The notes under the pieces: generated by a model
Databases searched by the model: none
Seen by the model: only the letters and a program-made list of their open reading frames with translations
What the model was told of the DNA's origin: nothing
DNA from: Spongiibacteraceae bacterium
GTDB taxonomy: Bacteria > Pseudomonadota > Gammaproteobacteria > Pseudomonadales > Dasaniaceae
Reading direction: 5' to 3'
Assembly (NCBI GenBank): GCA_028280715.1
Contig: JANQLG010000012.1
Span: 62,211 to 126,210, forward strand
DNA: 64,000 nt
Shown: positions 28,799 to 50,192 of the stretch, piece by piece
Layout: every line of letters starts with the position of its first letter
Numbering within the stretch: the stretch's first letter is position 1
Made by a program: the position numbers and the translations under genes

Positions 28799-28817
28799 TT
28801 TTTGCTCATTGTAAAAG

Positions 28818-28891: not shown

Positions 28892-28898
28892 AAAAATT

Positions 28899-28972: not shown

Positions 28973-28978
28973 ACAATT

Positions 28979-29064: not shown

Positions 29065-29068
29065 TATT

Positions 29069-29143
29069 TGGCTGGCCTGGTAGGGGTCGAACCTACGATT
29101 CTCCGGTTAACAGCCGGACGCTTTACCACTCAGCTACAGACCA
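29069..29143 (-). tRNA. tRNA-Asn (GUU)
   Basis: Acceptor UGGUCUG/CAGGCCA (U1-A72, one U.G), D arm GCUG-AGUGGUA-AAGC, anticodon arm UCCGG-CUGUUAA-CCGGA, variable GAAUC, T arm GUAGG-UUCGACC-CCUAC, G73, encoded CCA. 75 nt. Confidence 0.85.
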
Positions 29144-35991: not shown

Positions 35992-36008
35992 ATATATGGG
36001 AGATAACA

Positions 36009-36194
36009 ATGACATATAAGTTAAAGCGAACACTTTTAGCCCTATCAATCATCGCTTTACTCATATCAGGCTGCTCGACAAGTAATTATCATATTGATTG
36101 TGATATATCCTCAACGCCAGAGAATAATGAACTGTGCTCACCCGCTTCAGAGCAGAAAAAAAATGATGAAGATGATATGGAGAGAATGGATTAA
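36009..36194 (+). CDS. Small acidic lipoprotein
   Basis: 61 aa with lipobox LLISGCST. GGGAGA RBS-like sequence upstream. Confidence 0.45.
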   Translation: MTYKLKRTLLALSIIALLISGCSTSNYHIDCDISSTPENNELCSPASEQKKNDEDDMERMD

Positions 36195-36199
36195 GCAAC

Positions 36200-36868: not shown

Positions 36869-37450
36869 CTATTGATACCTATAATGCCCTGTGATCCGAT
36901 AGCTAAACAACATATCCTCCAATTTAGGGCCTGCACCAATATTATGAACAATCATAGGATTACCTGAATCAGGATGGAATTTATCTGTCACAATACCTAT
37001 GTGTGGCAAATTACCCGGCAACATCCAGGTAACAATATCGCCTGCCTTATAGTCAGAAGACTTTGAAGAAACTGGCAGCGCAACACCCTTTCTTGAAAAA
37101 AATGTTTGTAAATTTGGCACTCTGCGATGATCGATATTTTTATCCGGTTTAGATAAGCCCCAGATTCTTTTTGATGGATATTGATCGAAGCTTTCTGCAA
37201 TATCTTCATGAACTAGTTTTTGAAGATCTATATTGAGCGCCCGATAGCTGCGAATCACAACATCTGTACAGACTCCGATATTCTCTGGCACATCACCACC
37301 AGGATAGCCTATGGAATAATAAGCTCCGTTATATTCAATGTCATATTTAGTACGCTCCAAAGCGGCAAGCACAAGACTATCTTCAAAAGTTTCAGCCTGA
37401 GCTTTGGAAGTCACTATCAATAAAAACAATATTAAACGGACTAAACTCAT
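36869..37450 (-). CDS. DUF1287-family exported protein
   Basis: Signal peptide plus CTDVVIRSYRALNIDLQKLVHEDI, NIDHRRVPNL and GDIVTWMLPGNLPHIGIV, which match my recollection of DUF1287. Confidence 0.6.
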   Translation of the reverse strand: MSLVRLILFLLIVTSKAQAETFEDSLVLAALERTKYDIEYNGAYYSIGYPGGDVPENIGVCTDVVIRSYRALNIDLQKLVHEDIAESFDQYPSKRIWGLSKPDKNIDHRRVPNLQTFFSRKGVALPVSSKSSDYKAGDIVTWMLPGNLPHIGIVTDKFHPDSGNPMIVHNIGAGPKLEDMLFSYRITGHYRYQ

Positions 37451-37521
37451 ATCATTTATTCTTTAAACACGTCTAGTATCAATTCCTTGAAATTAGTAAC
37501 TCAACCGGTCGCATAAGATAA

Positions 37522-37764
37522 CTAATCAATATTGACATCCGTATTTCGGGCCACTATACCCACTGACCTTAATAAAAAGGCAATGCTTTTATAAGGCAGA
37601 TCAATGACCAACTCAATCATGTCATACCATACATCATTACCCCGATGATGCTTGGGCCACAGATAATGAATAAAGAGGTATCCACTAATACAAGCAAAGA
37701 ACACAATCCAGTCAAAGCCATTGACAATCAAATCATAGACTAGATATGAACTGATAAAAAACAA
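37522..37764 (-). CDS. Small membrane protein (hypothetical)
   Basis: 80-aa ORF with two hydrophobic helices. Confidence 0.4.
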   Translation of the reverse strand: MFFISSYLVYDLIVNGFDWIVFFACISGYLFIHYLWPKHHRGNDVWYDMIELVIDLPYKSIAFLLRSVGIVARNTDVNID

Positions 37765-37823
37765 TAAAATTGAAATAATTGCCCTGAATGTATCGATGAT
37801 ATACCTTCCTTATTAGCAGCTAA

Positions 37824-38063
37824 TTATATACTAAACTCCATTCTTAACTGGTCGACTCTATCTGACAGCTCCCCCTGAAGCTCATCACGGTTTAACCTGC
37901 CAATTATATTTCTCAAAACACGTTTTTCATCTTCATCAACCACACCATCGCGTAATGCAATATCGACGATCTTATTTAGCTCATCGACATCCAGCTTACC
38001 ATCATCAGCAAAGCAGTTAATCGAATGAAAGCTCATTTCTAAATAATCGGTGGTATCACTCAT
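37824..38063 (-). CDS. Small acidic helical protein (TerB-like?)
   Basis: 79-aa ORF. The DGKLDVDELNKIVDIALRDGVVDEDEKRVL repeat-like pattern is reminiscent of TerB-type helices. Confidence 0.35.
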   Translation of the reverse strand: MSDTTDYLEMSFHSINCFADDGKLDVDELNKIVDIALRDGVVDEDEKRVLRNIIGRLNRDELQGELSDRVDQLRMEFSI

Positions 38064-38095
38064 TCCTGTATCTCCTTTTTAATCGTTAGATCAGT

Positions 38096-38629
38096 TTATT
38101 CAAAATTAGTAATAAGATATTGCCTTAACTGGTGTTTATTCGGATGTTGATCAAGCCACTCTTTAAAGACATCGAGCTTATCAAAATCATCCGGACTCAA
38201 TTGCTGCCTATAATGCTCTTTTAAATTTTCTTTCTGCTTCTCAATACGAATGTTTCGTTGCCAAGCATCCGTAAAAATGGAAGGCAGTTTAGTGTGATTA
38301 TCCTGCGACTTAAGTAACTGCCACTCACCCTTATCGAGCCATACTTCATCACAATAACTACAGAGTTCAATTTTATTATTAGATTCAGCACCTATTTGAA
38401 ACTTTGTCATCAGGCGGGAACATTTGGGGCATAGTTTGGCTTTACCAACATCTTCAACGACTACGTCGTCTAAGTCTCCTTTATCAACATCAATATTTTG
38501 ATCAATCCAGTAACGGTAATTGATTAATGGTAACAATACACCTTCGCACTTCGGGCAAGCAGCAGCAACCAAACCTTCATCTATAGATACTGGAGCCAAT
38601 CGATAACCCTTACATTGCGTACAATTCAT
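38096..38629 (-). CDS. Double zinc-ribbon protein (TFIIB-type zinc-ribbon-like)
   Basis: Two CxxC...CxxC units (CTQCKG..CPKCEG; CPKCSR..CSYCDE). Confidence 0.5.
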   Translation of the reverse strand: MNCTQCKGYRLAPVSIDEGLVAAACPKCEGVLLPLINYRYWIDQNIDVDKGDLDDVVVEDVGKAKLCPKCSRLMTKFQIGAESNNKIELCSYCDEVWLDKGEWQLLKSQDNHTKLPSIFTDAWQRNIRIEKQKENLKEHYRQQLSPDDFDKLDVFKEWLDQHPNKHQLRQYLITNFE

Positions 38630-38672
38630 AAATAATCCCCTACTCTATTAGTTATTTCCGCACCGATCTAAA

Positions 38673-39515
38673 CTAGGACCGCGGCATACAGCAACGCTTA
38701 TAACGTTTGCCACTACCACAGGGACAGGGTGCTTTTTTTCTGGGCTTGATATCTTCAGCAATGGCCAACACCTCTTGCTGGTAAAATTCTGTTAATGATT
38801 CATACAAATGTGGATGCTTATTTTTTAATAACTGCGGCCTTTCAAAAAAGTACTCCGATGCCACTGCAAAAAACTCTGCACGATTACTAGCACCATAATC
38901 GCGAATATTGCTACGCCTGCTATCAATTTCTTTAATTTTCTTTTCTATCAGATCAAACCAGGGTATCGAAAATCTAAATGCCTGTAGTCTTTCAGGAAAA
39001 CCATCACAGTCGCCATCAGCCATATCCACTAGATGGGCGAATTCATGGATACCAACATTTTTTTTATCCCTACTATTTTCAAACCCTGAATAGAGATGAG
39101 GCCGACTTAGTGCCATTTTGCCAGTCATAGGCCCTGTGCCCACCATACCACTTATGGTTGAATCTGGCTGCCCACACTCAAAGTTTTCATTAAAAACTCC
39201 TGGAAATAGATAGACTGCTCTTAAATTGAAGTAATGCCACTTAGGAAAGCCCCATACAGGAATGATTGCACTGGCAGCCACTAGCAAACAGTCTTCATCA
39301 GACACTTCAATTTGACCTGCCTCTACAGCTGTAGTTTGTAAAAAAAGCAGTGATCGCTGTTGAAAAAGTATTTTATCTTTATCATTTAATGTGCGGTAAA
39401 AAACTACCTTATCATTAAGGAAGTCTGACCAAGACTGTTGCCAAGTTATTACTTGTTTGGATTTATTAAACCCAAACAACTGACGTAACCATTGCTTTAG
39501 CTGACTAAACATCAA
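38673..39515 (-). CDS. MtfA-like (M90) zinc peptidase with C-terminal SEC-C motif
   Basis: GIHEFAHLVD (HExxH) in an MtfA-like context. The C-terminus is CPCGSGKRYKRCC. Confidence 0.65.
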   Translation of the reverse strand: MMFSQLKQWLRQLFGFNKSKQVITWQQSWSDFLNDKVVFYRTLNDKDKILFQQRSLLFLQTTAVEAGQIEVSDEDCLLVAASAIIPVWGFPKWHYFNLRAVYLFPGVFNENFECGQPDSTISGMVGTGPMTGKMALSRPHLYSGFENSRDKKNVGIHEFAHLVDMADGDCDGFPERLQAFRFSIPWFDLIEKKIKEIDSRRSNIRDYGASNRAEFFAVASEYFFERPQLLKNKHPHLYESLTEFYQQEVLAIAEDIKPRKKAPCPCGSGKRYKRCCMPRS

Positions 39516-39545
39516 TCTATTTTTCGTAAATAGTGAAACAAAATA

Positions 39546-40121
39546 TTATAGGCGCCCATAACTTCTCCTTAGCAAAGTGGTCTTGGTGGCAATGGCACCA
39601 CATACCACACCTGCCACCACACCGAATAGATGTGACTCAAAGGACACGCCAGTTTGTATTGGCAAAATCCCATAAATCATTCCGCCATAAAAGAAGATGA
39701 CAAATAGGGCAATGGCAATATTTTTAAAACTGCGATCAAACCAGGCGATAGTAATGGATAAACTCCATAGACCAAATATCCATCCGCTAGCACCAATATG
39801 ACTGGCTTCTCTGCCAAATAACCAGACCAGTATGCCGGTTACTAAGATAATGATCAGACTGCTGATAAGGTAGAAGCTGACCGGCCGCACTAAACAGATA
39901 GCACTAAAAATACTTAAGCCAATGATGTTATTGATTAAGTGCCAATAGCTGCCATGGATAAATGGCGCAGTAATGATGTGGTACCAGTTTTCCGGTGAAC
40001 GAGGAATAATGCCGTATTGATTAAATTGTCCATCCAGTATGATATTGAAAATGTGGATAATACTGATCAACATTACCACACAGGTAATAACTCGTACTCT
40101 TAACCACAAAGAGCTCGTCAT
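39546..40121 (-). CDS. Rhomboid-family intramembrane serine protease
   Basis: Six TM segments, HLINN and GASGWIFGL (catalytic Ser) and a distal His (ESHLFG). Confidence 0.75.
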   Translation of the reverse strand: MTSSLWLRVRVITCVVMLISIIHIFNIILDGQFNQYGIIPRSPENWYHIITAPFIHGSYWHLINNIIGLSIFSAICLVRPVSFYLISSLIIILVTGILVWLFGREASHIGASGWIFGLWSLSITIAWFDRSFKNIAIALFVIFFYGGMIYGILPIQTGVSFESHLFGVVAGVVCGAIATKTTLLRRSYGRL

Positions 40122-43100
40122 TACTCATCTCTCTTAGGTGACTTCTTTGATGACCGTTTTGGAGAGCTTTCTATAACTTGGGCTTCAGCCACGTGGGTTT
40201 CGAGATTACGCAACTGCTCAGAAATATCTTTCATTTTATTATGCGTACGAAGATCAATTTCCAGTTTTTTATCCATACTTCGCACTAAAGGAAAAATACT
40301 ATGCTCAATGGTTTCTGCCAGAACAGTCAGCACTTTATCAATTCCGGGTACAGGTTCATTAACGACTTTTACTGATGGTTTACTCTGCTTAACAACATCT
40401 GCCAGCTTATCGACAACATTCGCTAATTCCTGTGAAGATCTATCACTGCCACTCACTGATGACGTACTTACCTGAGTGGCTACATCTTTTAATTCTTGAA
40501 CACCATTGACCAAATCCACTAACTGGGCAACCACTTTTCCACCCACATCCGCATCATCACCACCCATGGCTTTATTACGCAGAAAATCCTTTTTAATTTG
40601 CTGCCAACGTCGCCCCTCTTCCGCCGTAATATTGCCTCGAAGTTCTACTAATTTGAGCAAATTGTCTTCTGCCCCCGTGGTGAGCAATTGCGCTTCACCC
40701 AAATAATGATCTGCAATCATCTGCATTAATTCTTCTTCATTCATTACTGCAGAAATTTTTTCCGTCATTTTATTCATGTTGCGATAACTGCCCTGTAGTT
40801 TAAAGGCAGGTTCGGTGCGATATTTATCATCCTGCGCTGCTGATGCGATATACTGCTGGTTAATTTTTAGGACGACATCCTGGACAACAAACATTTTTTT
40901 CAGGATTTCGGTGATTTCATTAATTTCTGCACCACTGTATGAATGGCTCAAATCAGTAGTAGCAACATTCGCTCCTTTGGCCATATTAATCAGTTTGTAG
41001 ACATCATCCATTTCACGCACTGCTAGTGGAGCTAATACGGAATTAGAGGTCAGCGCATTCTCGACATAACTCAAAGCAAACTGCTCATCCATGCCACCTA
41101 AAATATCACCCAAGTTATAAATATCGGCACGGTTAGCCAGCATATCCGGTATTTTGAAAGCTTCACCGGATTCGGTATAAGGATTACCGGCCATTACCAC
41201 ACAGAATTTTCGACCGCGCATATCATAGGTTTTGGTGGCACCTTTCCAAACACCTTCAATACGGCGCGTACCATCACACAGCGAAATAAATTTTTGCAGA
41301 AATTCGGGATGGGTATGTTGTATATCGTCTAAATACAACATTACATTGTTACCCATCTCCAGCGCTAAATTTAACTTGCCGAGCTCTTGCCTTGCAGTAG
41401 CATTGGGTGCCTGCTCTGGGTCCAGTGATAAAACATCATGACCTAGGGAAGGGCAATTGATCTTCATAAAGATCAAGCCCAAGCGATTAGCCACATATTC
41501 CATCAAGGTGGTTTTACCGTAGCCTGGCGGAGAGATCATCATCAACAAACCCATGAGGTCGGTACGCTTGTTTTCACCAACAGTGCCCATTTGCTTGGCC
41601 AGATTGTCACCAATTAACGGCAAGTAGGATTCATTGATTAATCGATTACGCACAAAGGAGCTGAGCGGCCTTGGCTTGAATTCTTCTAACCGCAGTTTTT
41701 CTCGCTGTTCTTTTATGGTGTTTTGGCGCAACTCTAAATAATGATGATAGGAAGGCACCACTTCGAAGCGATGTTTTTCCATACGCTGCAAATAAGAATC
41801 CAACGAAAATTGTAGCTGTCGATTTTCTATTGTCGGGTGATCGCCTAATAGCCCTTCTATTGTTAGTTCCAGATCCACCTCGGTTAAACGGCGCTCTAAA
41901 CGTTCATCGGCATTAATGAGAGCCACTGCTTCTGGGATATACCCTTCCATGCCTTCGAGGTTTTTTTCTTTGATTAGTGCATCCAACCAAGCCGTCGATA
42001 AGTTCCAACGCTCTGCTGGCCATCCCATCATTTTATCCAAGGCCATTTGATAACGCCGCCAGGTACTATCATCCATGGAGCGTTTTAATTCCTCGACCAA
42101 ATAGGTGGCATATTTGCTGCCGATAAATTCGACCCTTTCTCGACCCAATTCAGCCACTAAATAATCGGCCGCTCGGCGAATATCCAACTCATTAACAGGA
42201 ATCGGATGCAACTCAACAAAAACAGTCAGCGCCTCGCGCACTTCACTTGCTAATAACTCAATAGCTTCTGAACTAGCAAAAACCGATTGCATTTGGGCGG
42301 CAGACTGTGCTCGTTCTGGCCAAGTGGTGAAAGATAGCGCCTCACGCTCCGCTTCACTGGGTTTGTTTTTGGCTAAATTTTTTATATTGGCCCAGAATAC
42401 TTGTGCCAATCCGCGACTTAATGGATCATAGCGCAACAAGTCAGCACGATCGATAGCAGGTATTAAAGCTTTTAATAACAACACCGCATCGTGATCGTGA
42501 ACACCCTTCTCATATCCCTCTTTATAGCGGGGCGCAGCAAAATCTCTCACTAAGGCGTTAATCAATTCATCATCCAATAAACTCTGCTGTAGTTTATCCG
42601 CCGTCAATTCATTCTGTTGGTGCTTGGCCGCTTCAATGATTAAAGATGCCAGATACTCTGACCGATAGACCTCTGGTGTCTCAGACTCCAGTGACATATC
42701 CCAATAATCACGCATTGCTTGTAAATCGGAGTGAGTAATAGGCTCATAAAAATCGGTACCCGTTAAATGCAAATTTAATGCGCCACTACGAGGGATAATG
42801 GTTAAATCCAGCTCCTGAGTATTAACTGAAAACTTATGGCGAGGCCCTAGTTTTATAATATTACCGCCATCTTCAAAGATATCTGTTTTATCACGCAACG
42901 AACGTAACGCTTGTTCTTTAATTGCTTTAAAGCGAGCCTCAACGTCATCGGCTTTTACCGCGCTATCCAACTCACGCAATTGTTCAATCAGCTCACGAGC
43001 TTTCAGCACTAAAGCGTCGGAGGCAAAATACGTATTTAATTCATCCGCCTCTGTAAATTTAAGCGAGCGTTTTTCTATACTAGCAAGAATACGATCGGCA

Positions 43101-45448
43101 GCATCGGTAATCGATTGCGCTTTTCGCTGACGCTCATCGAGTAATTGCTGTTTATGGCTTTCAAAGGATTCATATATTTCCTCACGCTTATCCATTATAT
43201 CTGCAAGGAATTGATCAAAATTTGTGAACTGGCTTTCCAACTCTTCCAATTGCACTAGCAAGCGGGACAGTTGTTCGTCACATTTTTCCGGCGTTGTTGC
43301 CAAGCCTAATGCGTTGGTAATACTTTGAGAAAATAATTTAAACTGTGCACCGAACTGAGCAACGGCTTCTTCTGAACCGAGATTTTTCTGTTTATGCTTG
43401 GCATTAGCTTTGCTCTGATTCAGTTTTGAATAAACCTGGGAAATGGCATCAATGATACAGGTACGAACAGTGGCATCTTCGACCTTTAAGGTTCCCATTA
43501 ATTCTGATAATAAATCCAAGCCTGATGCTGTTGTTTCAATAGTATCTATTAATGGCTGCAGAGCAGCATTGGTCTCAGCCTGATCGACTTCTTTATTAAG
43601 CGTATCAATTTTTATCAGGTATGGCTCAAGTGCTTTTTCATCGGAGAGGAAAACCACCGTCTGTTCACTGAGAGACTCTTCTGTACGCTGTAGCTCCTGA
43701 TCCAACTCTTCAATGCGAGCAACATCGATATATCGATTGTCTTTAATGGTGGTGAGGTGGCCACGCTGGCGCCGCAGCTTTCCCAATGCATCGACAAACT
43801 CTTCAGCTGTTTCCCAGTTTTCTGAGCGAATAACCTGCAGCAATTCTTCCTGATCACGTTCAGCCTCCAGCATAGTTTTCGCCGATTGCTGGCGAATACT
43901 TTCGACTTTTTCAAATTCATCAATGACCAATTCTGAAGTCGATGAGATCTCTTTAAGAGTCACTGCTATATCTTGGGTTTCGGTATCTTCAACCCAATAG
44001 TGATCATCAAAAACCTTTTTCGCTGCCTTGCTCAGCTCTTCATACAAACGTAGCGACACTGACTGATTGTCAATCCTTCGACAAATACTATATAAGTCGG
44101 ATACACCTCGCACCAACTCAGCATTACCGATCCTGCCAAAAAATGTTTGGCTGGCAGGTGCTTTACTGGCAAATTCTGTGCTCTGGTAGGGCGTTTGCCA
44201 AATTTGCATAGGATGTACACGTATGGGTTCTTCTTCGGCGGAAAAAATAACCAGCTGACCATTTTCTGCCAGAGCATAACCATGGCTATAAATAGGATTT
44301 TGTAATTGTTTTTCGATCAGGTTGTAGGCAAATAATCCAACATTGCCCTCTTCTTGTTCATAGAAAACATAGAGAACATCTTCTCCATTGGGTGAACGAA
44401 TAGATCGCTTAAACTTTAAGCCTGCAACCTCTTCATCAAAGGCCTTGTATTCGCCCGTTTGTAAGTAGTAACCACCGGGAAATATCAATCCATGATCTTC
44501 AGGCAGCTGCACACAGGACTGCCCAATGGCATCAACACGTAATACTTTTTGGATTAAGGTGTTATAGATATAATAACGCCAGCGCTCTTCTTGGTAAGGT
44601 CTGATTTTTAACAGTATTAAGCTACCAACTGCAGCATAAGCTATTTGCGCATCATCCAGTGATTGAGTTTTATCTTCGACTGACTCCCGATAAACCCCTA
44701 ATCCATCTTCAGTATTATTTTCGATTTTGATGGTAAGGTCACCGCCCAAGGTTTCAACGAACACGGTGTCAAGCACATTAATGTGAGGATGACGGCCATG
44801 AATGGCGTCTTCTCGTGTCGTATCAATCCATTCAAAATCGTACTCGGGAGGCAGTTGAATATCGCGCTCGCCACGATTATCGATATAGCGCAATTCCTTT
44901 TCATCAGCCGAAACTGACCAGCGAAAGACGCGAATATCTTCAAGTCGCTCACCAATTTGAAAACCTGCCAACAACTTACCATCTTTAATAGTAAGCTCAA
45001 CCAGCTTGGTATGTTTGTAGTAACGATATAACTCTTCAAAATCACTAACAAAACTACTCTGGGTTAAAAAAGTACCCGCCAGCGATACTGGCTCCATTTC
45101 ATAGTTGCCGTCTGTCTGCTTAATATCAAACAACGCAAACACATCTTCAATTTTGGTTTCTTTTTTAAGACCAATAAAGACGTTGTAACCAAAGAGTAGA
45201 TGATCACCTACCTGGACGATATCTCTGGCAATGCAGTTATTTTCTGTGCGCACTCGAACTCGAGCGAGTACATCCATATCCAAACTACCAAATTCTTCTA
45301 AGCGAGACTCATTAAGCGCCTGTACTTTTTGGCTGAGCGTTTGCCCCTGGCTTACCAGGCGCTTGCGAATAATGTCGTAAGCACCGCCTTCGGCTACTGC
45401 GCTGTCGACTATATCGTTAGCTTCCACAGCCTGCTCTTGCTGTTCCAT
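40121..45448 (-). CDS. Giant (1775 aa) AAA+ ATPase with long coiled-coil region
   Basis: Walker A ISPPGYGKTT (41507..41530) and Walker B VMLYLDDIQ. The N-terminal ~450 aa are non-helical, the middle ~800 aa are helical, and the C-terminal tail is KR-rich. The start overlaps the rhomboid gene end by 1 nt. Confidence 0.75.
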   Translation of the reverse strand: MEQQEQAVEANDIVDSAVAEGGAYDIIRKRLVSQGQTLSQKVQALNESRLEEFGSLDMDVLARVRVRTENNCIARDIVQVGDHLLFGYNVFIGLKKETKIEDVFALFDIKQTDGNYEMEPVSLAGTFLTQSSFVSDFEELYRYYKHTKLVELTIKDGKLLAGFQIGERLEDIRVFRWSVSADEKELRYIDNRGERDIQLPPEYDFEWIDTTREDAIHGRHPHINVLDTVFVETLGGDLTIKIENNTEDGLGVYRESVEDKTQSLDDAQIAYAAVGSLILLKIRPYQEERWRYYIYNTLIQKVLRVDAIGQSCVQLPEDHGLIFPGGYYLQTGEYKAFDEEVAGLKFKRSIRSPNGEDVLYVFYEQEEGNVGLFAYNLIEKQLQNPIYSHGYALAENGQLVIFSAEEEPIRVHPMQIWQTPYQSTEFASKAPASQTFFGRIGNAELVRGVSDLYSICRRIDNQSVSLRLYEELSKAAKKVFDDHYWVEDTETQDIAVTLKEISSTSELVIDEFEKVESIRQQSAKTMLEAERDQEELLQVIRSENWETAEEFVDALGKLRRQRGHLTTIKDNRYIDVARIEELDQELQRTEESLSEQTVVFLSDEKALEPYLIKIDTLNKEVDQAETNAALQPLIDTIETTASGLDLLSELMGTLKVEDATVRTCIIDAISQVYSKLNQSKANAKHKQKNLGSEEAVAQFGAQFKLFSQSITNALGLATTPEKCDEQLSRLLVQLEELESQFTNFDQFLADIMDKREEIYESFESHKQQLLDERQRKAQSITDAADRILASIEKRSLKFTEADELNTYFASDALVLKARELIEQLRELDSAVKADDVEARFKAIKEQALRSLRDKTDIFEDGGNIIKLGPRHKFSVNTQELDLTIIPRSGALNLHLTGTDFYEPITHSDLQAMRDYWDMSLESETPEVYRSEYLASLIIEAAKHQQNELTADKLQQSLLDDELINALVRDFAAPRYKEGYEKGVHDHDAVLLLKALIPAIDRADLLRYDPLSRGLAQVFWANIKNLAKNKPSEAEREALSFTTWPERAQSAAQMQSVFASSEAIELLASEVREALTVFVELHPIPVNELDIRRAADYLVAELGRERVEFIGSKYATYLVEELKRSMDDSTWRRYQMALDKMMGWPAERWNLSTAWLDALIKEKNLEGMEGYIPEAVALINADERLERRLTEVDLELTIEGLLGDHPTIENRQLQFSLDSYLQRMEKHRFEVVPSYHHYLELRQNTIKEQREKLRLEEFKPRPLSSFVRNRLINESYLPLIGDNLAKQMGTVGENKRTDLMGLLMMISPPGYGKTTLMEYVANRLGLIFMKINCPSLGHDVLSLDPEQAPNATARQELGKLNLALEMGNNVMLYLDDIQHTHPEFLQKFISLCDGTRRIEGVWKGATKTYDMRGRKFCVVMAGNPYTESGEAFKIPDMLANRADIYNLGDILGGMDEQFALSYVENALTSNSVLAPLAVREMDDVYKLINMAKGANVATTDLSHSYSGAEINEITEILKKMFVVQDVVLKINQQYIASAAQDDKYRTEPAFKLQGSYRNMNKMTEKISAVMNEEELMQMIADHYLGEAQLLTTGAEDNLLKLVELRGNITAEEGRRWQQIKKDFLRNKAMGGDDADVGGKVVAQLVDLVNGVQELKDVATQVSTSSVSGSDRSSQELANVVDKLADVVKQSKPSVKVVNEPVPGIDKVLTVLAETIEHSIFPLVRSMDKKLEIDLRTHNKMKDISEQLRNLETHVAEAQVIESSPKRSSKKSPKRDE

Positions 45449-45521
45449 ATCACTTTCCTTAAGCTCAAACAGTGGTTAATAAAAGAGGCAGAGACATTTC
45501 ACCCCTGCTATGAAAACCTGA

Positions 45522-47471
45522 TCAGGCCTTCTCTTGCTCTTCATTAACGGCTGTTGGCTTGCCGTCGATGATGCGGCCAATCAGCGCTGCAATGGTATCG
45601 CTCTTATCAGCCAAACCGTCTACAGCTTTACCAATTGACAAGGACTTGGCGAAATTATTAAAGAAGTGATCTTCTCCACCCACGATATCAATTTTGGCTT
45701 TCTGTAGGGCAACAGCCAGCACTTCAGCATTTTCTCTGGCGATATCCTTACCCGCATCAATTGAAGCCAATGCTTCTTTCAGCGCGGTTTCTAGCCCCAT
45801 GCGATATTCCTCGTGCTCTCGCGCATCAGCACTCATACTGTTCATGGCTTCGAATTTATCTACTAAGCCGTCTGCTTCCGCCTTAAATTGCTCACGAGTC
45901 ACATCGGCACCGGCCATACCTATTTCTTTAGCTGCCTGCGCTTCTGAATTACCTTTGGCGGCTATGACTTCAGCCTCAGCTTTACCCGTTTCACGTTGTG
46001 CGCTAGCTTCCGCATCGCCTTTAGCCTTAACAACAGTAGCTTCTGCCAAACCTTCTTTTTCCTGCGCATCGGCTTTCGCTTCCTGAACTTTGGCATCAGC
46101 CAAACCAGGTGCCGCACGCTCAGCCTGAACACCTTCGGCCAGTTTTTTCTTAGCATCGGCTTCTTTGGCCGCAGCTTCCAGTTCTGCTTGCGCAATGGTC
46201 GTTATTTCAATCGCTTTATGTTTTGCAGAAAGCTCTTCAGCCTCAGCCGCTTTGACTTGCTTAACCTTTTCCTCATCAGCCTGAGCTTCAGCTGCTAACA
46301 CTTGCGTTTGTTTCGCACGGTCAGCTTCAGAGACTTCACGAACTTCCTTAATACGTTCCTCTTCTATAGCAACGGTCTTATCAACGGCAACACGTTCACG
46401 AATAACATTAGCAATTTCTTTTTTCTCAACTTCCACCGCTTTCTCAGCTTCAATTCTTTGCAACTCCACCTCACGTTCTCTGGCAACAATTTCCAAATCA
46501 CGTGCACGTGTTACTTTTTCTTCTTCTATCGCTACAGCACGCTGACGATTTTGCTCTGCTACTTCAATTTCACGCTTTTGATTTTCAGTTTGTACTGATA
46601 GATCTTGTTCAACTTGAATAGTAGTTGCCTCTGCTTTGCGCCGTTCTTCTTCCTGAACTTTCTTGGTTTCTGCTTCTTCACGAGCACGGATAGTGGCAAT
46701 TTCACGCTCTTGTTTCGCTTCTGCATCTGACTGTTGACGCTCTAATTCAAGCATCGCCTCAACTGTTTCGACATTTTTCTTCTTAATGGCTAACTCTTCG
46801 TCGCGCTCAAGAATATTGGTCCGAATATTTTGCTCAGCAGTTAATTCCGTAATTTTCTTAATACCTTCAGCATCAAGGATATTAGAGGGATCAAGTGAAG
46901 CCTTTGGTGTCTGCTCTAAATAATCAATGGCCACATCTTCTAATACATAACCGTTCAGGTCATCACCGATAACCCGAATAATTTTTTCACGGAATTCCTG
47001 GCGATTTTCAAACAACTTAACAAAATCGATTTGTTTACCCACTGTTTTTAAGGCTTCAGAAAACTTTGCATTGAATAACTGATTAACAGCTTCTTTATCC
47101 GACGCTCTTCCCGCCCCAATGGATTTAGCAACCTTTAACACATCATCGGCTGTTTCATTCACTCTTAGATAGAATGCAACGGTTATATCCGCCCTCATAT
47201 TATCCGCACAAATCAAACCATCCTGGCCTCGGCGATCAACCTCAAGGGTGATTAATGAAATTTTCATTAATTCCTTTTTATAAATAATGGGATACACCAA
47301 AGCACCGGTAAAATGGACCTTTGGTTTAGCACTCATATCATTAACAATTAATGCTGTACCCTGCTCAACCTTTACATAGAACGACTTAAATAATGCGGCA
47401 AACCCCATAAGAATGACAAAAAAGATGCCGACTCCCATAATGATGGGCATAAGAACTGATAGATCAGCCAT
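45522..47471 (-). CDS. Flotillin-like SPFH protein (YqiK-type) with very long E/A/K coiled coil
   Basis: N-terminal TM segment, then SPFH core, then ~350 aa of EAKR-rich heptad-like sequence. Confidence 0.85.
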   Translation of the reverse strand: MADLSVLMPIIMGVGIFFVILMGFAALFKSFYVKVEQGTALIVNDMSAKPKVHFTGALVYPIIYKKELMKISLITLEVDRRGQDGLICADNMRADITVAFYLRVNETADDVLKVAKSIGAGRASDKEAVNQLFNAKFSEALKTVGKQIDFVKLFENRQEFREKIIRVIGDDLNGYVLEDVAIDYLEQTPKASLDPSNILDAEGIKKITELTAEQNIRTNILERDEELAIKKKNVETVEAMLELERQQSDAEAKQEREIATIRAREEAETKKVQEEERRKAEATTIQVEQDLSVQTENQKREIEVAEQNRQRAVAIEEEKVTRARDLEIVAREREVELQRIEAEKAVEVEKKEIANVIRERVAVDKTVAIEEERIKEVREVSEADRAKQTQVLAAEAQADEEKVKQVKAAEAEELSAKHKAIEITTIAQAELEAAAKEADAKKKLAEGVQAERAAPGLADAKVQEAKADAQEKEGLAEATVVKAKGDAEASAQRETGKAEAEVIAAKGNSEAQAAKEIGMAGADVTREQFKAEADGLVDKFEAMNSMSADAREHEEYRMGLETALKEALASIDAGKDIARENAEVLAVALQKAKIDIVGGEDHFFNNFAKSLSIGKAVDGLADKSDTIAALIGRIIDGKPTAVNEEQEKA

Positions 47472-47518
47472 AGTGGTTACTCCATTTCCTAATAGTTAAA
47501 TAACAATATTTTTAATAG

Positions 47519-48214
47519 TTAGCTTCCAGAAAATTCTTGCTCAGAAACAACGCGGTATACGTTTTCTTCTTTTAAATGCTCCAACAGCACAACGCGATCT
47601 CCTTTTACGAATTCATCATCACCTGTTGCTCTCACTTTGAGAATAAGCCCCGCCCCACCATCTTCTAACATAGCCTCACCAAAACCCTGATCAACTCGAG
47701 AGGTTCTGACAATCGCCGTCTGGCCTAATATATGTTTTACGGTTTGTTGTTGTGCTTTTTTGAATAACGGCCTTAATGGCTTAATAACAACGGCGGTTAT
47801 CATAACCGCTACGTATAGCGACCCGAATAAAATGGGGATTCCGACTAAAAACTCTAAAAAAGCACCTGGAACTAGGCCAAATAGAAAATGAACGGCATAG
47901 TAGGATAACAGCCATCCAAACAAAGATATAAACGAGATAATGACGGTGACGGGAACGCCATGCAGACCAAACCTCAACATCAGCCCGGCCAACACATCGG
48001 GATTTGATAACCCATCTGCATCAACAGCAAATGCACCGTCAGTTTCAGGAAGATCAAAATCGAGAATGTCAATTTCTACAAATCCCAAAACAGCAACCAA
48101 CCAATACAGAACGGTAATAGCTAAGAAAAACGTAAAGAAAACGGTCGGGAATGAAGCAATATTTTGGTAAAACGGATCCATTCCCTCCGTTAAAAAAATT
48201 GCAAACATTCCCAC
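47519..48214 (-). CDS. YqiJ/NfeD-like membrane protein (OB-fold C-terminus)
   Basis: Four TM helices plus a C-terminal soluble beta domain. It lies directly upstream of the flotillin gene, as yqiJ-yqiK do in E. coli. Confidence 0.6.
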   Translation of the reverse strand: MGMFAIFLTEGMDPFYQNIASFPTVFFTFFLAITVLYWLVAVLGFVEIDILDFDLPETDGAFAVDADGLSNPDVLAGLMLRFGLHGVPVTVIISFISLFGWLLSYYAVHFLFGLVPGAFLEFLVGIPILFGSLYVAVMITAVVIKPLRPLFKKAQQQTVKHILGQTAIVRTSRVDQGFGEAMLEDGGAGLILKVRATGDDEFVKGDRVVLLEHLKEENVYRVVSEQEFSGS

Positions 48215-48281
48215 CTCCTTTTTTGATTGTGTTTATTCCTAAGACACTGATACTTAACAATACGTATCAGTTAAGAATTAA

Positions 48282-48968
48282 CTATTTTTTGTTTTTCAAT
48301 CTTTCCAAGATATCATCCGCGCTCTTACCACTAGGGGCAATTCCAGCTTCCTCCAGTTTAGTCTGTAAAGAGGTATCAGATGTTTCCTCAGCAAGCTCAC
48401 TGGCTGCAGACATTTGTGCTGACTTCAACGCCTGCTTTTCTTTGATACGCTCCAATGAATCCATTGCAGTACGCATTTTTGAATGTGAGCCGCTATGCCT
48501 TTCAGCCACTGCAGTCTGCGCTCGCTGTACATTTTCTGTCGCTTTTACCGTATCCACCTGCTGCTTAATACGTTTTAAATTGCGCTCTGTTTGCTTAATC
48601 GCCGTGCGAAGATTGTTGGCGCTAGACTCAAAACCGACAGTAGATTCTTTTTCCTGAGCTAATTGGTTTTCAAAATCGGCAATTTTTTCAGCCACTTCGT
48701 GCGCCAAAGCATTATCATCCTTTTCTAATGCTTTAATCGCATAGCCCTCATGCTCTTCTATCTGCTTTTTAAGATTGGCACACTTTTCTTCGGATAATTT
48801 TTGCCTCGCCATAATCTCAGCGAGACTATCTTTAGACTGCTTTAGCTCCTCAGAAGCATCACGAACTTCCTGATCCAGTATCCGCAACGCCTGACTATCA
48901 ACAATTGCTTCACCAGCCTCATTCACACCACCACGTAAAGCGGTCATCATTTTTGCCCAAATATTCAT
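48282..48968 (-). CDS. PspA/IM30-family protein (YjfJ-like)
   Basis: 228-aa all-helical protein with the N-terminal MNIWAKMMTALRGGVNEAGEAIVD pattern typical of PspA/IM30. Confidence 0.85.
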   Translation of the reverse strand: MNIWAKMMTALRGGVNEAGEAIVDSQALRILDQEVRDASEELKQSKDSLAEIMARQKLSEEKCANLKKQIEEHEGYAIKALEKDDNALAHEVAEKIADFENQLAQEKESTVGFESSANNLRTAIKQTERNLKRIKQQVDTVKATENVQRAQTAVAERHSGSHSKMRTAMDSLERIKEKQALKSAQMSAASELAEETSDTSLQTKLEEAGIAPSGKSADDILERLKNKK

Positions 48969-48988
48969 TGATCTGCTCCTATCATCAA

Positions 48989-49618
48989 CTAGCTGGCTTC
49001 TACGGAAAGGTTTAAGAATTCGCTATAGGCTTCCGTCGCCTGTATAACGTTACTTGCCAAAACTTCTATCTCGAAAATCACATTCGACAAAATAGATGTT
49101 GAACTCAGCGCACCAAACATGTGGTAGTAATCACCATTTTTTCCAAGACTATCGAGACTAATGGTGGAAAGAGGGAAATACTTATGAGTTCTTAAGATCG
49201 TTTCATTAAAACGATTAACATCAACCACTTCATCAACTGACCACAGTACCGCTTCAACAATAATCTGTTCACCAGATACCGTTAGGAAAACCGGCAAATC
49301 CCCATACTCCCCCATAACAACATGCAGGGCAGGCTCCACACCATCAATCAATTCAATGGTTGCTCGGCCACTAGAAAACAAATCAGACTCCTTTAGCGAC
49401 TCAAACAAGCTACTGGTCGTCCAACTATTGGTATTCTCAGTCATGCTTCTTTCTCCTTTTACTGTATTTAACTCACCAGGCATACGCAGTTGCTTTTCCA
49501 ACTCAGTCAACCTCCCAGCGTTCTCCGGAAGAATCCAAACCTCCTTCTTCACCAACCCCTGCTCACGCAAGCGGCGTCGGTATTCACGCTGATAATATGC
49601 TGATGACTTTGCTTTCAT
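48989..49618 (-). CDS. YjfI-like (DUF2170) protein with basic N-terminal extension
   Basis: The C-terminal 130 aa align by eye with E. coli YjfI (YGDLP.F..VSGEQIIVE..., YYHMFGALSSTSILSNVIFEIEVLASN). The ATG at 49618 is preferred. Confidence 0.65.
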   Translation of the reverse strand: MKAKSSAYYQREYRRRLREQGLVKKEVWILPENAGRLTELEKQLRMPGELNTVKGERSMTENTNSWTTSSLFESLKESDLFSSGRATIELIDGVEPALHVVMGEYGDLPVFLTVSGEQIIVEAVLWSVDEVVDVNRFNETILRTHKYFPLSTISLDSLGKNGDYYHMFGALSSTSILSNVIFEIEVLASNVIQATEAYSEFLNLSVEAS

Positions 49619-50069
49619 GGCCAAACTATAATTTGTTACATGTGATATTGCAAATAATTTTACATGTAACAAAAAATAAACTCCTATCTATTTGATTTTA
49701 TTAATATAAATAAAAACCAAAAACACTCACCACCCCAAAAAGATGGAAGTTTTAATCAGCAGAAAGGAGAAAATAGAGAGAAGACCGCAACATTTTCCTA
49801 TGCATTATTATGTTTATTGGTTGCTATTATCTTGAAGCATTGCAGCTTATATCATTACAAAATTATTTTTATAAAGCGACACCCAATAAATCACAGCTTT
49901 ATTACAGGAGCAATAATTAGGAATTGTAATTACTAAACAAAAAAACAGCTCAATCAAAACTGAAGCTTTGCAGTTATAGCCTAGATTAGCCTCTTAAACG
50001 GACGTTTAATAGCACGCATGAGTTCCGCCAAACATGCTTCAGCTGCCTTCAACTCCTTAGAAAACTGAA

Positions 50070-50120
50070 GACCATTCATTAAAAAAGCCACCCGATGGGT
50101 GGCTTTTTTAATGAATGGTC
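50070..50120. terminator. 51-bp perfect palindrome (24-bp arms) acting as tRNA-Pro terminator and overlapping the tRNA 3' end
   Basis: GACCATTCATTAAAAAAGCCACCC-GAT-GGGTGGCTTTTTTAATGAATGGTC. The right arm includes the tRNA 3' GACCA (50116..50120). Confidence 0.7.
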
Positions 50121-50192
50121 GGGACGGCAGGATTTGAACCTACGACCACCACACCCCCAGTGTGGTGCGCTACCAGACTGCGCTACGCCCCG
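50116..50192 (-). tRNA. tRNA-Pro (GGG)
   Basis: Acceptor CGGGGCG/CGUCCCG, D arm GCGC-AGUCUGGUA-GCGC, anticodon arm CCACA-CUGGGGG-UGUGG, T arm GUAGG-UUCAAAU-CCUGC, A73, CCA. 77 nt. Confidence 0.9.

What the first reader, a model, noticed from the sequence alone, without database searches (positions are those of the whole stretch)
39546..49672. PspA/IM30 - YjfI - YqiJ/NfeD - flotillin - giant AAA+ ATPase - rhomboid cluster: possible bacterial membrane-remodelling machine
Seen: seven co-directional genes with short or overlapping junctions. They run from the YjfI-like gene through PspA-like, YqiJ-like, a 649-aa flotillin and a 1775-aa AAA+ protein to a rhomboid protease, whose start overlaps the ATPase stop by one base. 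An MtfA-like peptidase with a SEC-C tail follows. Established: PspA/IM30/Vipp1 adopt ESCRT-III-like folds. ESCRT-III polymers in archaea and eukaryotes are remodelled by an AAA+ ATPase (Vps4). NfeD-flotillin pairs are conserved. Inference: the giant AAA+ ATPase could be the energy-consuming partner of the PspA/flotillin scaffolds, with rhomboid as a membrane-embedded processing component. This linkage is not functionally characterised as far as I know.
Basis: partly seen in the sequence, partly recalled or inferred. Interest (0 to 1): 0.7.

Follow-up and report, generated by a model that had tools for sequence, protein, structure and literature searches.

The report
Known PspA–flotillin–giant ATPase (bac) operon
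This is a real, conserved membrane-stress gene cassette, but it is the counterpart of the Pseudomonas aeruginosa bacABCDEF operon already in the literature, and its giant ATPase always sits next to flotillin rather than PspA and is not Vps4-like.

Summary
Nine co-directional minus-strand genes (49618→37827) encode a DUF2170/BacA-like protein, PspA, a YqiJ-like membrane protein, a YqiK-type flotillin, a 1775-aa DUF3686 AAA+ protein, a rhomboid, an M90/SEC-C peptidase, a Zn-ribbon protein and a 78-aa protein.

The linkage is not new. Ravi et al. 2024 described this operon type and proposed ATP-dependent remodelling. Wallart et al. 2024 showed that P. aeruginosa bacABCDEF is one transcript. The first gene here matches the BacA crystal structure 8Q8O (E 1.5e-41).

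In 80 genomes carrying the ATPase:
- flotillin lies immediately upstream in 73/73 testable loci
- the YqiJ-like gene is present in 71/72
- the DUF2170+PspA pair is present in 40/70
- rhomboid is present in 12/76
- M90 is present in 0/80, and only in four close relatives

Best reading: an envelope-stress module whose core is a flotillin/YqiJ scaffold plus a MoxR-like motor. PspA–BacA, rhomboid and the peptidase are add-ons. The biochemical mechanism is still untested.

One side finding may be new: a conserved double palindrome (TTACATGTAA ×2) at the promoter, which co-occurs with an N-terminal basic domain on BacA.

The parts
49625..49669 (-). Promoter/operator region. Two copies of the palindrome TTACATGTAA (49660-49669 perfect; 49636-49645 with one mismatch) bracket and overlap a sigma-70-like -35/-10 pair (TTGCAA-17-TATAGT).
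   Evidence: The same double palindrome, spaced 21-24 bp, lies upstream of the first gene in 17 other loci and in Teredinibacter. No sigma-54 consensus with up to 2 mismatches occurs in 49620-50100.
48989..49618 (-). bacA-like gene, 209 aa from the ATG at 49618. It has an N-terminal basic domain of about 47 aa, possibly a small repressor-like DNA-binding domain, followed by a DUF2170 (CesT/T3SS-chaperone-like) domain.
   Evidence: Pfam DUF2170 E 4.9e-52. NCBIfam BacA equivalog 319 bits against cutoff 300. PDB 8Q8O (P. aeruginosa BacA) E 1.5e-41. The N-terminal domain gives weak UrfF and MazE-like hits.
48282..48968 (-). PspA/IM30-family protein (ESCRT-III-like fold family), BacB-like, 228 aa.
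   Evidence: Pfam PspA_IM30 E 2.5e-49. PDB Vipp1/PspA chains at E about 1e-6.
47519..48214 (-). YqiJ/YuaF-like multi-pass membrane protein with a C-terminal soluble domain (BacC-like), 231 aa.
   Evidence: hhalign of a 28-sequence family profile against E. coli YqiJ: probability 94.6%, E 6e-8. BLASTP E 0.013. No Pfam hit. Present in 71/72 ATPase loci.
45522..47471 (-). Flotillin/SPFH protein of the YqiK type (BacD/PaFlo3-like), 649 aa. It has an N-terminal hydrophobic segment, an SPFH domain and a long Glu/Ala/Lys-rich stretch.
   Evidence: Band_7 E 6e-8 on residues 1-233. 31% identity over 479 aa to E. coli YqiK, E 7e-47. Immediately upstream of the ATPase in 73/73 loci.
40121..45448 (-). Giant 1775-aa ATPase (BacE-like). 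Layout: DUF3686 domain (38-484), helical region with DUF7902 (605-688), a MoxR/AAA_5-type AAA+ module (about 1290-1640), and a helical, basic C-terminal tail.
39546..40121 (-). Small six-TM rhomboid-family intramembrane serine protease (BacF-like), 191 aa. Its start overlaps the ATPase stop by 1 nt (TAATG).
   Evidence: Pfam Rhomboid E 1.3e-18. The HxxxxHxxxN, GASG and H..GxxxG motifs are readable in the sequence. Overlap shown. Downstream of the ATPase in 12/76 loci, often overlapping it by 4 nt.
38673..39515 (-). Peptidase M90 (MtfA-family fold) with a C-terminal SEC-C zinc motif, 280 aa. This is a lineage-specific addition to the cassette.
   Evidence: Pfam M90 E 1.1e-57 and SEC-C E 3.3e-7. 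HEFAH is readable in the sequence. Absent from all 80 loci. Present in the same slot in three close relatives that sit in different chromosomal contexts.
38096..38629 (-). 177-aa double Zn-ribbon protein, a recurrent accessory of the cassette.
   Evidence: Pfam Zn_ribbon_TFIIB E 1e-7. Homologues (phmmer E 1e-18 to 1e-63) lie next to the ATPase in 10 loci: downstream in the Cellvibrionaceae-like gammaproteobacterial loci, and between flotillin and the ATPase in Burkholderiales.
37827..38063 (-). 78-aa acidic protein, weakly TerB-like. It is the last conserved gene of the cassette in this lineage.
   Evidence: 76% identical to the gene in the same position in Teredinibacter sp. KSP-S5-2. TerB E 0.015, below the Pfam cutoff.

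Best explanation
The locus is the Cellvibrionaceae counterpart of the P. aeruginosa bacABCDEF operon, an envelope or membrane-stress module.

Its evolutionarily fixed core is a triad:
- a YqiJ/NfeD-like membrane protein
- a YqiK-type flotillin, which in known SPFH systems forms large membrane-attached oligomeric cages
- a cytoplasmic giant MoxR-type AAA+ protein

I infer that the giant protein assembles into a ring. I further infer that it uses its long helical arm and N-terminal DUF3686 domain to grip and remodel, assemble or dismantle the flotillin/YqiJ scaffold or clients held in it.

In about half of lineages, including this one, a PspA (ESCRT-III-fold) protein and its CesT-like partner BacA have been added upstream. 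This couples flotillin-based organisation to PspA-based membrane sealing.

Here BacA also carries a small N-terminal basic domain. The promoter carries two TTACATGTAA palindromes. I therefore infer that BacA represses the operon directly, and that repression is relieved when its chaperone-like domain is engaged by PspA during stress. This would resemble PspA/PspF partner switching.

The rhomboid, M90/SEC-C peptidase, Zn-ribbon protein and 78-aa protein are lineage-specific accessories. They probably process or regulate membrane components of the complex.

Shown: homologies, gene order, conservation statistics, AAA+ clade, and conservation of the operator motif. Taken from the literature for P. 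aeruginosa: operon transcription, co-regulation, BacA as a negative regulator, and phenotypes. Inferred: every physical interaction and the direction of the ATPase's work.
For: Orthology to bac:
- NCBIfam BacA equivalog above cutoff.
- PDB 8Q8O E 1.5e-41, and that entry is the BacA crystal structure.
- The same A-B-C-D-E(-F) order in seven Pseudomonas-group loci, with the ATPase at 57-59% identity.

Core triad:
- Flotillin 73/73, YqiJ-like 71/72, PspA+DUF2170 40/70, rhomboid 12/76.
- The triad persists in relatives whose N-terminal domain is only 30-33% identical.
- E. coli has yqiJ-yqiK without the ATPase. The dependence therefore runs one way: the ATPase needs flotillin, not the reverse.

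AAA+ type:
- AAA_5 matches over the whole domain.
- Foldseek top hits are NorQ and CbbQ.
- The model shows a beta-hairpin before sensor 1 and an insertion after beta-2.

Cassette as a unit:
- The same 8-9 genes appear in three different chromosomal contexts (versus window).

Regulation:
- The double palindrome occurs in 17 loci. All 17 have the BacA N-terminal domain. None of the 12 loci lacking that domain have it.
- It overlaps a sigma-70-like promoter.
- BacB-F rise 6-13 fold in a bacA mutant (PMC10948618).

Stress link:
- PA3731 is induced by osmotic shock (PMC2587700).
- PA3728-PA3732 are induced by phage infection (PMC12041424).

Precedent for SPFH-PspA cooperation exists in B. subtilis (title and abstract of PMC8581546).
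Against: - No experiment on the ATPase or the rhomboid exists in the papers I could find.
- Deleting the P. aeruginosa flotillin (PaFlo3) reduced biofilm by only about 20% (PMC13086221). The scaffold is therefore not essential for the published bac phenotypes.
- Walker B reads DD rather than DE, and this is invariant across the family. The protein might be a slow ATPase or a nucleotide-dependent switch rather than a motor.
- MoxR-type ATPases usually work with a VWA partner. Pfam shows none in the cassette.
- The DNA-binding nature of the BacA N-terminal domain rests on sub-threshold hits.
- The P. aeruginosa literature proposes a sigma-54 promoter instead.
- I could not model the N-terminal DUF3686 domain or any complex.
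Confidence: 0.6

Rival explanations
1. The giant ATPase is the bacterial functional equivalent of Vps4. Its main job is to disassemble or recycle PspA (ESCRT-III-like) polymers, and flotillin is a secondary platform.
For: PspA and the ATPase share the operon here and in 40/70 loci. They are co-transcribed and co-induced in P. aeruginosa. Ravi et al. draw the same analogy. A 2025 review states that a Vps4-like ATPase appears absent in bacteria, so a substitute is being sought.
Confidence: 0.2
2. This is the database label. The 1775-aa protein is a 'DNA repair ATPase', and its position beside membrane genes is incidental.
For: Pfam calls DUF3686 'ATPase involved in DNA repair'. NCBI, UniRef and JGI name the homologues 'DNA repair ATPase/protein'. 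The only sequence-level PDB matches of the family profile are weak Walker-A hits to RuvB (E about 1e-3).
Against: No nuclease, helicase or DNA-binding domain was found. The gene is flanked by flotillin in 73/73 loci. It is co-transcribed with membrane-stress genes in P. aeruginosa. The RuvB match covers only about 35 residues around the P-loop. A full-text search for 'DUF3686' returned no papers.
Confidence: 0.03
3. The cassette is a mobile anti-phage or abortive-infection system that senses membrane perturbation during infection.
For: [quoted passage not shown] Close relatives carry the cassette at different chromosomal positions. In Teredinibacter it lies next to an integrase and an IS110 transposase. 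In the window it follows a tRNA-Pro gene, and its G+C content is lower than that of the flanks.
Against: PADLOC gives no meaningful hit, only coiled-coil and SEC-C noise. No tRNA-derived direct repeat was found, and no integrase appears among the window genes that were scanned. Induction by phage is the classic Psp stress response, not proof of defence. The family is widely distributed and mostly follows taxonomy.
Confidence: 0.07

Closest known systems
P. aeruginosa bacABCDEF (PA3732-PA3727 / PA14_16140-16200), the 'biofilm-associated cluster'
   Same: The gene order matches: DUF2170/BacA, PspA-like BacB, membrane protein BacC, SPFH protein BacD (PaFlo3), giant ATPase BacE, and a small downstream gene BacF. 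BacA matches at the equivalog level and matches the 8Q8O crystal structure. Pseudomonas-group loci show the same order, with the rhomboid overlapping the ATPase by 4 nt.
   Different: The window adds three genes: M90/SEC-C, the Zn-ribbon protein and the 78-aa protein. I found no sigma-54 consensus here, whereas the P. aeruginosa papers propose one. Instead there is a sigma-70-like promoter with two palindromes. I did not retrieve the P. aeruginosa locus itself, so the identity of BacF as a rhomboid is inferred from other Pseudomonas-group species.
The CesT/Tir-PspA + band-7/flotillin + novel AAA+ + YqiJ/YuaF operon class of Ravi et al. 2024 (mSystems)
   Same: It has exactly the described components. 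The authors also note that abbreviated flotillin-YqiJ(-AAA+) operons are more widespread, and that some operons contain a phospholipase D. My counts reproduce both points.
   Different: [quoted passage not shown] Here the AAA+ module is placed structurally with the MoxR, midasin and dynein group. Rhomboid, M90/SEC-C and TelA do not appear as recurrent accessories in the passages I read.
ESCRT-III / Vps4 (archaea and eukaryotes)
   Same: An ESCRT-III-fold polymer (PspA) is encoded next to an AAA+ ATPase, so a polymer-plus-remodeller logic is plausible.
   Different: The ATPase belongs to a different AAA+ clade and has no detectable MIT domain. It is about four times larger than Vps4. It co-occurs with PspA in only 57% of loci.
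SPFH + AAA+ pairs such as HflK/C-FtsH, and SPFH-NfeD pairs (E. coli YqiJ-YqiK, QmcA-YbbJ)
   Same: An SPFH scaffold sits with an NfeD/YqiJ-type partner gene immediately upstream. A dedicated AAA+ machine is genetically tied to the SPFH protein. Some lineages attach proteases, which recalls FtsH or the protease domain of long NfeD proteins (from my own knowledge).
   Different: The ATPase has no protease domain and no predicted transmembrane segment. The proteases (rhomboid, M90) are separate, optional genes. E. coli YqiJK has no ATPase.
MoxR-family AAA+ chaperones (CbbQ/CbbO, NorQ/NorD, RavA/ViaA)
   Different: There is no VWA partner in the cassette. The module is embedded in a 1775-aa protein with about 1250 residues of N-terminal domains. 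Walker B is DD instead of DE.

Membership tests
bacABCDEF operon (P. aeruginosa BAC system) | The first gene encodes BacA (DUF2170, T3SS-chaperone-like fold). | tested here: met
   NCBIfam NF050185 BacA equivalog scores 319.4 bits against a cutoff of 300. PDB 8Q8O E 1.5e-41 over 140 residues. 8Q8O is the BacA structure.
bacABCDEF operon (P. aeruginosa BAC system) | BacA is followed in order by a PspA-like gene, a membrane protein, an SPFH protein, a giant ATPase and a small sixth gene, all co-directional. | tested here: met
   Window order. The same order occurs in Pseudomonas-group loci L008, L010, L014, L016, L018, L019 and L033.
bacABCDEF operon (P. aeruginosa BAC system) | The genes are transcribed as a single operon. 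| not testable with these tools
   This was shown by RT-PCR only in PA14. Here there are only short gaps, a 1-nt overlap, and no terminator signal above chance.
bacABCDEF operon (P. aeruginosa BAC system) | A sigma-54 (-24/-12) promoter lies upstream of bacA, as proposed in the papers. | tested here: not met
   TGGCAC-N5-TTGCW has no match with up to 2 mismatches in 49620-50100. A sigma-70-like site with two palindromes is present instead.
ESCRT-III/Vps4 system | It includes an ESCRT-III-superfamily polymer-forming subunit. | tested here: met
   PspA_IM30 E 2.5e-49. Matches to Vipp1/PspA structures. Assigning this family to the ESCRT-III superfamily rests on the literature (PMC8281802, listed).
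ESCRT-III/Vps4 system | The ATPase is a classical-clade AAA with an N-terminal MIT domain (Vps4 type). | tested here: not met
ESCRT-III/Vps4 system | The ATPase regularly co-occurs with the ESCRT-III gene. | tested here: not met
   PspA lies within 10 kb in only 40 of 70 informative loci. I did not check whether PspA is present elsewhere in those genomes.
SPFH/flotillin with NfeD/YqiJ partner | The protein has an SPFH (Band_7) domain and is related to YqiK-type flotillins. | tested here: met
   Band_7 scores 33.3 bits against a cutoff of 23.6 on residues 1-233. YqiK E 7e-47. The Flot C-terminal domain is only sub-threshold (E 0.031).
SPFH/flotillin with NfeD/YqiJ partner | A YqiJ/NfeD-type membrane protein with a C-terminal OB-fold is encoded immediately upstream. 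| tested here: inconclusive
   The profile comparison with E. coli YqiJ gives 94.6% probability over 131 columns. However, none of 28 family members hits Pfam YqiJ_N or YqiJ_OB. I did not model the fold.
MoxR/AAA_5-type AAA+ ATPases | The AAA+ fold carries a helix-2 insert and a pre-sensor-1 beta-hairpin, and its closest structures are MoxR, midasin or dynein. | tested here: met
MoxR/AAA_5-type AAA+ ATPases | A VWA-domain partner protein is encoded nearby. | tested here: not met
   No VWA domain appears in any of the nine cassette proteins. None appeared among the recurrent neighbours that I scanned against Pfam.
Rhomboid intramembrane serine proteases | It has a rhomboid domain with the catalytic Ser (GxSG) and His. 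| tested here: met
   Pfam scores 68 bits against a cutoff of 22.6. HGSYWHLINN, GASG and SHLFGVVAG are readable in the sequence. It is not a rhombosortase: 35.9 bits against a cutoff of 84.
MtfA (Mlc anti-repressor, Peptidase M90) | It is equivalog-level similar to E. coli MtfA. | tested here: not met
   The M90 domain is present (E 1.1e-57). The NCBIfam MtfA equivalog scores only 54.8 bits against a cutoff of 400. It is an M90-family peptidase with an added SEC-C motif, not an MtfA orthologue.

The most novel reading that the evidence does not exclude
The DUF3686 giant MoxR-like ATPase is a dedicated ATP-driven remodeller of flotillin (SPFH) cages and, where PspA is present, of PspA/ESCRT-III polymers. 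It would be the long-sought bacterial energy source for turnover of membrane scaffolds. In addition, BacA would be a two-domain switch: a DNA-binding repressor fused to a PspA-binding chaperone domain, reading the state of the PspA polymer through a conserved TTACATGTAA double operator.
Probability: 0.3. Interest if true: 0.7.

Novelty: new member of a known kind. Interest (0 to 1): 0.35.

Why it matters
How bacteria disassemble or recycle PspA/Vipp1 and flotillin scaffolds without Vps4 is an acknowledged open question. A 2025 review states that a Vps4-like ATPase appears absent in bacteria.

This operon family is the most obvious place to look. It has already been pointed out computationally, and P. 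aeruginosa is a genetically tractable model for it.

This analysis adds three things that sharpen the experiments:
1. The invariant partner of the ATPase is flotillin/YqiJ, not PspA.
2. The motor is MoxR/midasin-like and has an invariant DD Walker B.
3. There is a concrete, testable operator and repressor hypothesis for BacA.

The window itself is one more member of the family, with a lineage-specific protease and Zn-ribbon tail.

Tried and rejected
- Whole-protein Pfam and NCBIfam scans of the flotillin and the YqiJ-like protein gave nothing. Splitting the flotillin rescued Band_7. The YqiJ-like protein needed a profile comparison.
- Sequence searches of PDB with the flotillin and with the giant ATPase gave no hits. 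The family profile found only P-loop matches.
- The PDB hits for the rhomboid were spurious TPR matches.
- The first AlphaFold run on residues 1230-1775 used a shallow alignment and was poor (pLDDT 57.8). I discarded it. The second run used a diverse alignment and succeeded.
- No structure jobs remained for the DUF3686 N-terminal domain. The beta-propeller description therefore rests on Ravi et al. only.
- A sigma-54 promoter search found nothing upstream of the cassette.
- I searched for a genomic-island signature (a tRNA-derived direct repeat) and found none.
- The PADLOC defence models gave only coiled-coil and SEC-C noise.
- M90 as a conserved component is rejected: 0/80 loci.
- The iterated HMM for the Zn-ribbon protein picked up spurious alternative-frame ORFs overlapping flotillin genes. 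I counted only first-pass phmmer hits.
- The 80-aa ORF at 37522-37764 is not the conserved ninth gene. The real one is 37827-38063.
- A look-up of the exact window protein in the contig index found nothing.

Full report
**1. Observation**

In transcription order they are:
- 49672/49618-48989: DUF2170
- 48968-48282: PspA_IM30
- 48214-47519: 231 aa
- 47471-45522: 649 aa
- 45448-40121: 1775 aa, with DUF3686, DUF7902 and AAA
- 40121-39546: Rhomboid
- 39515-38673: Peptidase_M90 plus SEC-C

The gaps are 20, 67, 47 and 73 nt. The ATPase stop and the rhomboid start share one base (TAATG). A 30-nt gap follows.

The scan for terminator-like sites found no more than shuffled sequence gives (14 against 11.9 expected).

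Upstream lie pheS, pheT, two small ORFs (one probably ihfA; neither was scanned), tRNA-Pro(GGG) and a strong terminator-like hairpin.

**2. The two doubtful labels**

The 649-aa 'flotillin' gives no Pfam or NCBIfam hit as a whole, even at E ≤ 10. The cause is probably its long Glu/Ala/Lys-rich region.
- Its first 233 residues alone match Band_7 (33.3 bits against a cutoff of 23.6).
- It aligns with E. coli YqiK over 479 residues (31% identity, E 7e-47).

The 231-aa protein matches no Pfam model. Neither do 27 homologues from other genomes.
- BLASTP against E. coli YqiJ is marginal (E 0.013).
- A 28-sequence profile aligns with YqiJ at 94.6% probability (E 6e-8). The alignment covers the last membrane segments and the C-terminal soluble domain.

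I accept 'YqiJ-like' at the superfamily level only.

**3. It is the bac operon**

The first protein scores above the curated cutoff of NCBIfam's 'biofilm formation regulator BacA' equivalog. It also matches PDB 8Q8O at E 1.5e-41. That entry is the P. aeruginosa PA14 BacA crystal structure.

What the literature establishes:
- Macé et al. 2008 defined PA3732-PA3729 as the 'biofilm-associated cluster'. They gave a ΔPA3731 phenotype (biofilm, swarming, rhamnolipids, virulence) and showed osmotic induction.
- Wallart et al. 2024 extended the cluster to six genes, bacABCDEF. They showed by RT-PCR that all junctions are transcribed. BacB-F rise 6-13 fold in a bacA mutant.
- PA14_16190 is the 'ATPase involved in DNA repair' gene.
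- PA3728-PA3732 are co-induced by phage infection.
- PA14_16180 is the SPFH protein PaFlo3. Its deletion lowers biofilm by about 20%.
- Ravi et al. [quoted passage not shown] They note that abbreviated versions without PspA are more widespread, and they draw the Snf7/Vps4 analogy.

A third, profiling of gene neighbourhoods, was done in Ravi et al. 2024.

**4. Independent test of the linkage**

Size and shape of the family:
- The ATPase has more than 7100 homologues in the word-indexed search.
- Its DUF3686 domain defines about 750 clusters at 50% identity. Members are nearly always 1600-1900 aa.

I fetched 80 genomic loci (44-78% identity) with 10-kb flanks. They come from Gamma-, Beta- and Zetaproteobacteria, Myxococcota, a Clostridia MAG and a Thermoanaerobaculia MAG. 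I searched their ORFs with iterated profiles of each window protein. Among loci with enough flanking sequence:

| Neighbour | Loci with it / loci testable |
|---|---|
| Flotillin directly upstream (median gap 104 nt) | 73/73 |
| YqiJ-like gene | 71/72 |
| DUF2170+PspA pair (four of these divergently oriented) | 40/70 |
| Rhomboid directly downstream (gaps -11 to +14 nt in ten) | 12/76 |
| M90 peptidase | 0/80 |

Further points:
- Relatives whose N-terminal domain is only 30-33% identical still carry a protein of about 210 aa, then a Band_7 protein of about 650 aa, then the giant ATPase. No PspA was detected there, and TelA lies nearby.
- E. coli has yqiJ-yqiK with no ATPase.

So the ATPase depends on flotillin/YqiJ, not the other way round. 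PspA-BacA is an add-on module found in roughly half of lineages.

**5. Lineage-specific tail**

Three close relatives carry rhomboid, M90/SEC-C, a Zn-ribbon protein and, in two of them, a 78-aa protein after the ATPase. They are Teredinibacter sp. KSP-S5-2 and two metagenomic contigs, at 81-85% identity.
- They sit in different chromosomal contexts: after gyrB, or after pqiABC. The window cassette sits after tRNA-Pro.
- Gilvimarinus stops at the rhomboid.
- The 78-aa gene of the window (37827-38063) is 76% identical to the Teredinibacter one.

The Zn-ribbon protein has clear homologues next to the ATPase in 10 loci. They lie downstream in the Cellvibrionaceae-like gammaproteobacterial loci, but between flotillin and the ATPase in Burkholderiales. 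That argues for a functional tie.

Other lineages put different genes downstream of the ATPase:
- A PLD-like hydrolase appears in 15 loci. In L009 it sits between the rhomboid and the Zn-ribbon gene, the slot M90 occupies here.
- TelA appears in 12 loci.

**6. What kind of ATPase**

Motifs invariant across 53 diverse members:
- Walker A: SPPGYGKT
- Walker B: LDDIQH (DD, not DE)
- GNPY
- NRAD
- QGSYRNM

A second model of residues 1255-1640, built on a diverse alignment, reached pLDDT 87.1 and pTM 0.74.
- Foldseek's best PDB matches are NorQ and CbbQ, with MCM and RuvB interleaved.
- The model shows a β-hairpin before sensor 1 and an insertion after β2. From my own knowledge, these are features of the MoxR/MCM/dynein group and are absent from the classical clade that contains Vps4.

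Pfam's AAA_5 covers the whole domain, and no MIT domain is found. The ATPase is therefore not a Vps4 family member. Any Vps4-like role would be convergent. Pfam shows no VWA partner, which is typical for MoxR proteins, in the cassette.

**7. Regulation (side finding)**

The BacA-like protein has an N-terminal basic segment of about 47 aa (SSAxYQREYRRRLREQGLVKKEVWILPE…).
- This segment is included in the 206-position NCBIfam model but not in the 146-aa crystallised protein.
- It is present in 28/40 loci.
- It gives only sub-threshold hits to small repressor or antitoxin families: UrfF at E 0.006, and MazE-like at E 7.7e-4 for one member.

Immediately upstream of the start codon are two copies of the palindrome TTACATGTAA (49660-49669 and 49636-49645).
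- They are the only such pair in the 64-kb window.
- They overlap a sigma-70-like TTGCAA-17-TATAGT.
- The same pair, spaced 21-24 bp, occurs in Teredinibacter and in 17 of the 40 BacA-containing loci, including Pseudomonas species.
- All 17 of those loci have the N-terminal domain. None of the 12 loci lacking the domain has the pair.
- No sigma-54 consensus lies upstream in the window.

This fits BacA acting as a direct autorepressor, consistent with derepression in the bacA mutant. Binding is inferred, not shown.

**8. Mechanism: what is shown and what is inferred**

Shown: the homologies, the fixed C-D-E triad, the optional A-B and F modules, the MoxR-type fold, movement of the cassette as a block, and the conserved operator.

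Taken from the literature: a single transcript, co-regulation, stress induction, and phenotypes.

Inferred:
- The flotillin/YqiJ pair forms a membrane-attached scaffold.
- The ATPase forms a ring that uses its long arm and DUF3686 domain to remodel that scaffold or its clients.
- PspA is recruited for membrane sealing.
- BacA couples the state of PspA to transcription.
- The rhomboid, M90 and PLD process membrane components.

The invariant DD Walker B leaves open that the protein is a slow switch rather than a motor.

**9. Rivals**

- The Vps4-analogue model is weakened by the 43% of loci without PspA and by the AAA+ clade. It is not excluded, because PspA may be encoded elsewhere in those genomes.
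- The 'DNA repair ATPase' label has no support beyond the name.
- A phage-defence role has only circumstantial support. PADLOC gives no match.

**10. Verdict**

The feature is real, conserved and biologically interesting. The linkage and the remodelling hypothesis are already in the literature, and the window holds one more member with a lineage-specific tail. Interest is moderate. The ATPase's function is still unknown and bears on an open question, but the finding as stated is not new.

Noticed in passing
window 49625-49669 (minus strand); also L086 5795-5835 and 17 of loci L002-L081: Two copies of the 10-bp palindrome TTACATGTAA, 21-24 bp apart, overlap a sigma-70-like promoter upstream of the bacA-like gene. 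The pair is conserved from Cellvibrionaceae to Pseudomonas, Lysobacter and Sedimenticola. In this sample it occurs only where BacA carries its N-terminal basic domain. The bac papers I read do not mention it; they propose a sigma-54 site instead.
   Followed up: partly
window 49478-49618 (N-terminal ~47 aa of the bacA-like gene): This basic segment is part of the NCBIfam BacA model (206 positions). It is absent from the 146-aa P. aeruginosa protein that was crystallised (8Q8O). The annotated PA14 gene start may therefore be too short, and the published structure may lack a DNA-binding domain.
   Followed up: partly
window 37827-38063 (minus): This 78-aa acidic ORF falls below the 80-aa listing threshold. 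It is 76% identical to the gene at the same position in Teredinibacter and is weakly TerB-like. It is probably the last gene of the cassette.
   Followed up: yes
window 38096-38629 (minus); L057 9427-9975, L059 9351-9884, L064 8448-9014: The 177-aa Zn-ribbon protein recurs next to the giant ATPase in two different positions in two proteobacterial classes.
   Followed up: partly
L009 15853-16539; L022 16050-17153; L082 13001-14221; L083 13502-14608: Other lineages place a PLD-like hydrolase (15 loci) or TelA, a toxic-anion-resistance protein (12 loci plus distant relatives), downstream of the ATPase. In L009 the PLD gene occupies the rhomboid-to-Zn-ribbon slot that M90 fills here. The accessory position is variable but always filled by something membrane- or stress-related.
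   Followed up: partly
window 40121-45448, residues 1374-1375: The Walker B motif is LDDIQH, with both aspartates invariant in 53 diverse family members. The usual catalytic glutamate is replaced by aspartate.
   Followed up: no
window 45522-47471: hmmscan returns no Pfam family for the full-length flotillin even at E ≤ 10. The isolated N-terminal third passes the Band_7 threshold. The precomputed Pfam tables likewise show '-' for most orthologues, so automated annotation will often miss this flotillin.
   Followed up: yes
window 50072-50192 and 36000-50000: The cassette lies directly after tRNA-Pro(GGG) and a strong terminator-like hairpin. Its G+C content (0.39-0.44) is lower than that of the pheST side (0.47-0.48). 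Close relatives carry the same cassette after gyrB or after pqiABC. No att-like repeat was found, and no integrase appeared among the window genes scanned.
   Followed up: partly
L026, L035, L037, L047, L051, L054 (for example L035 6731-7081): A conserved 116-aa protein with no Pfam match accompanies the DUF2170-PspA pair in 12 loci. Those I checked lack the BacA N-terminal domain. It may be a separate regulator that substitutes for that domain.
   Followed up: no
window 27571-29143: A cluster of eight tRNA genes (Met, Leu, Lys, Pro, Cys, Gln, His, Asn) lies on the minus strand. It is unrelated to the finding.
   Followed up: no
L088 12871-13368: One close relative has an extra 165-aa gene with no Pfam match, inserted between the rhomboid and the M90 peptidase.
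   Followed up: no
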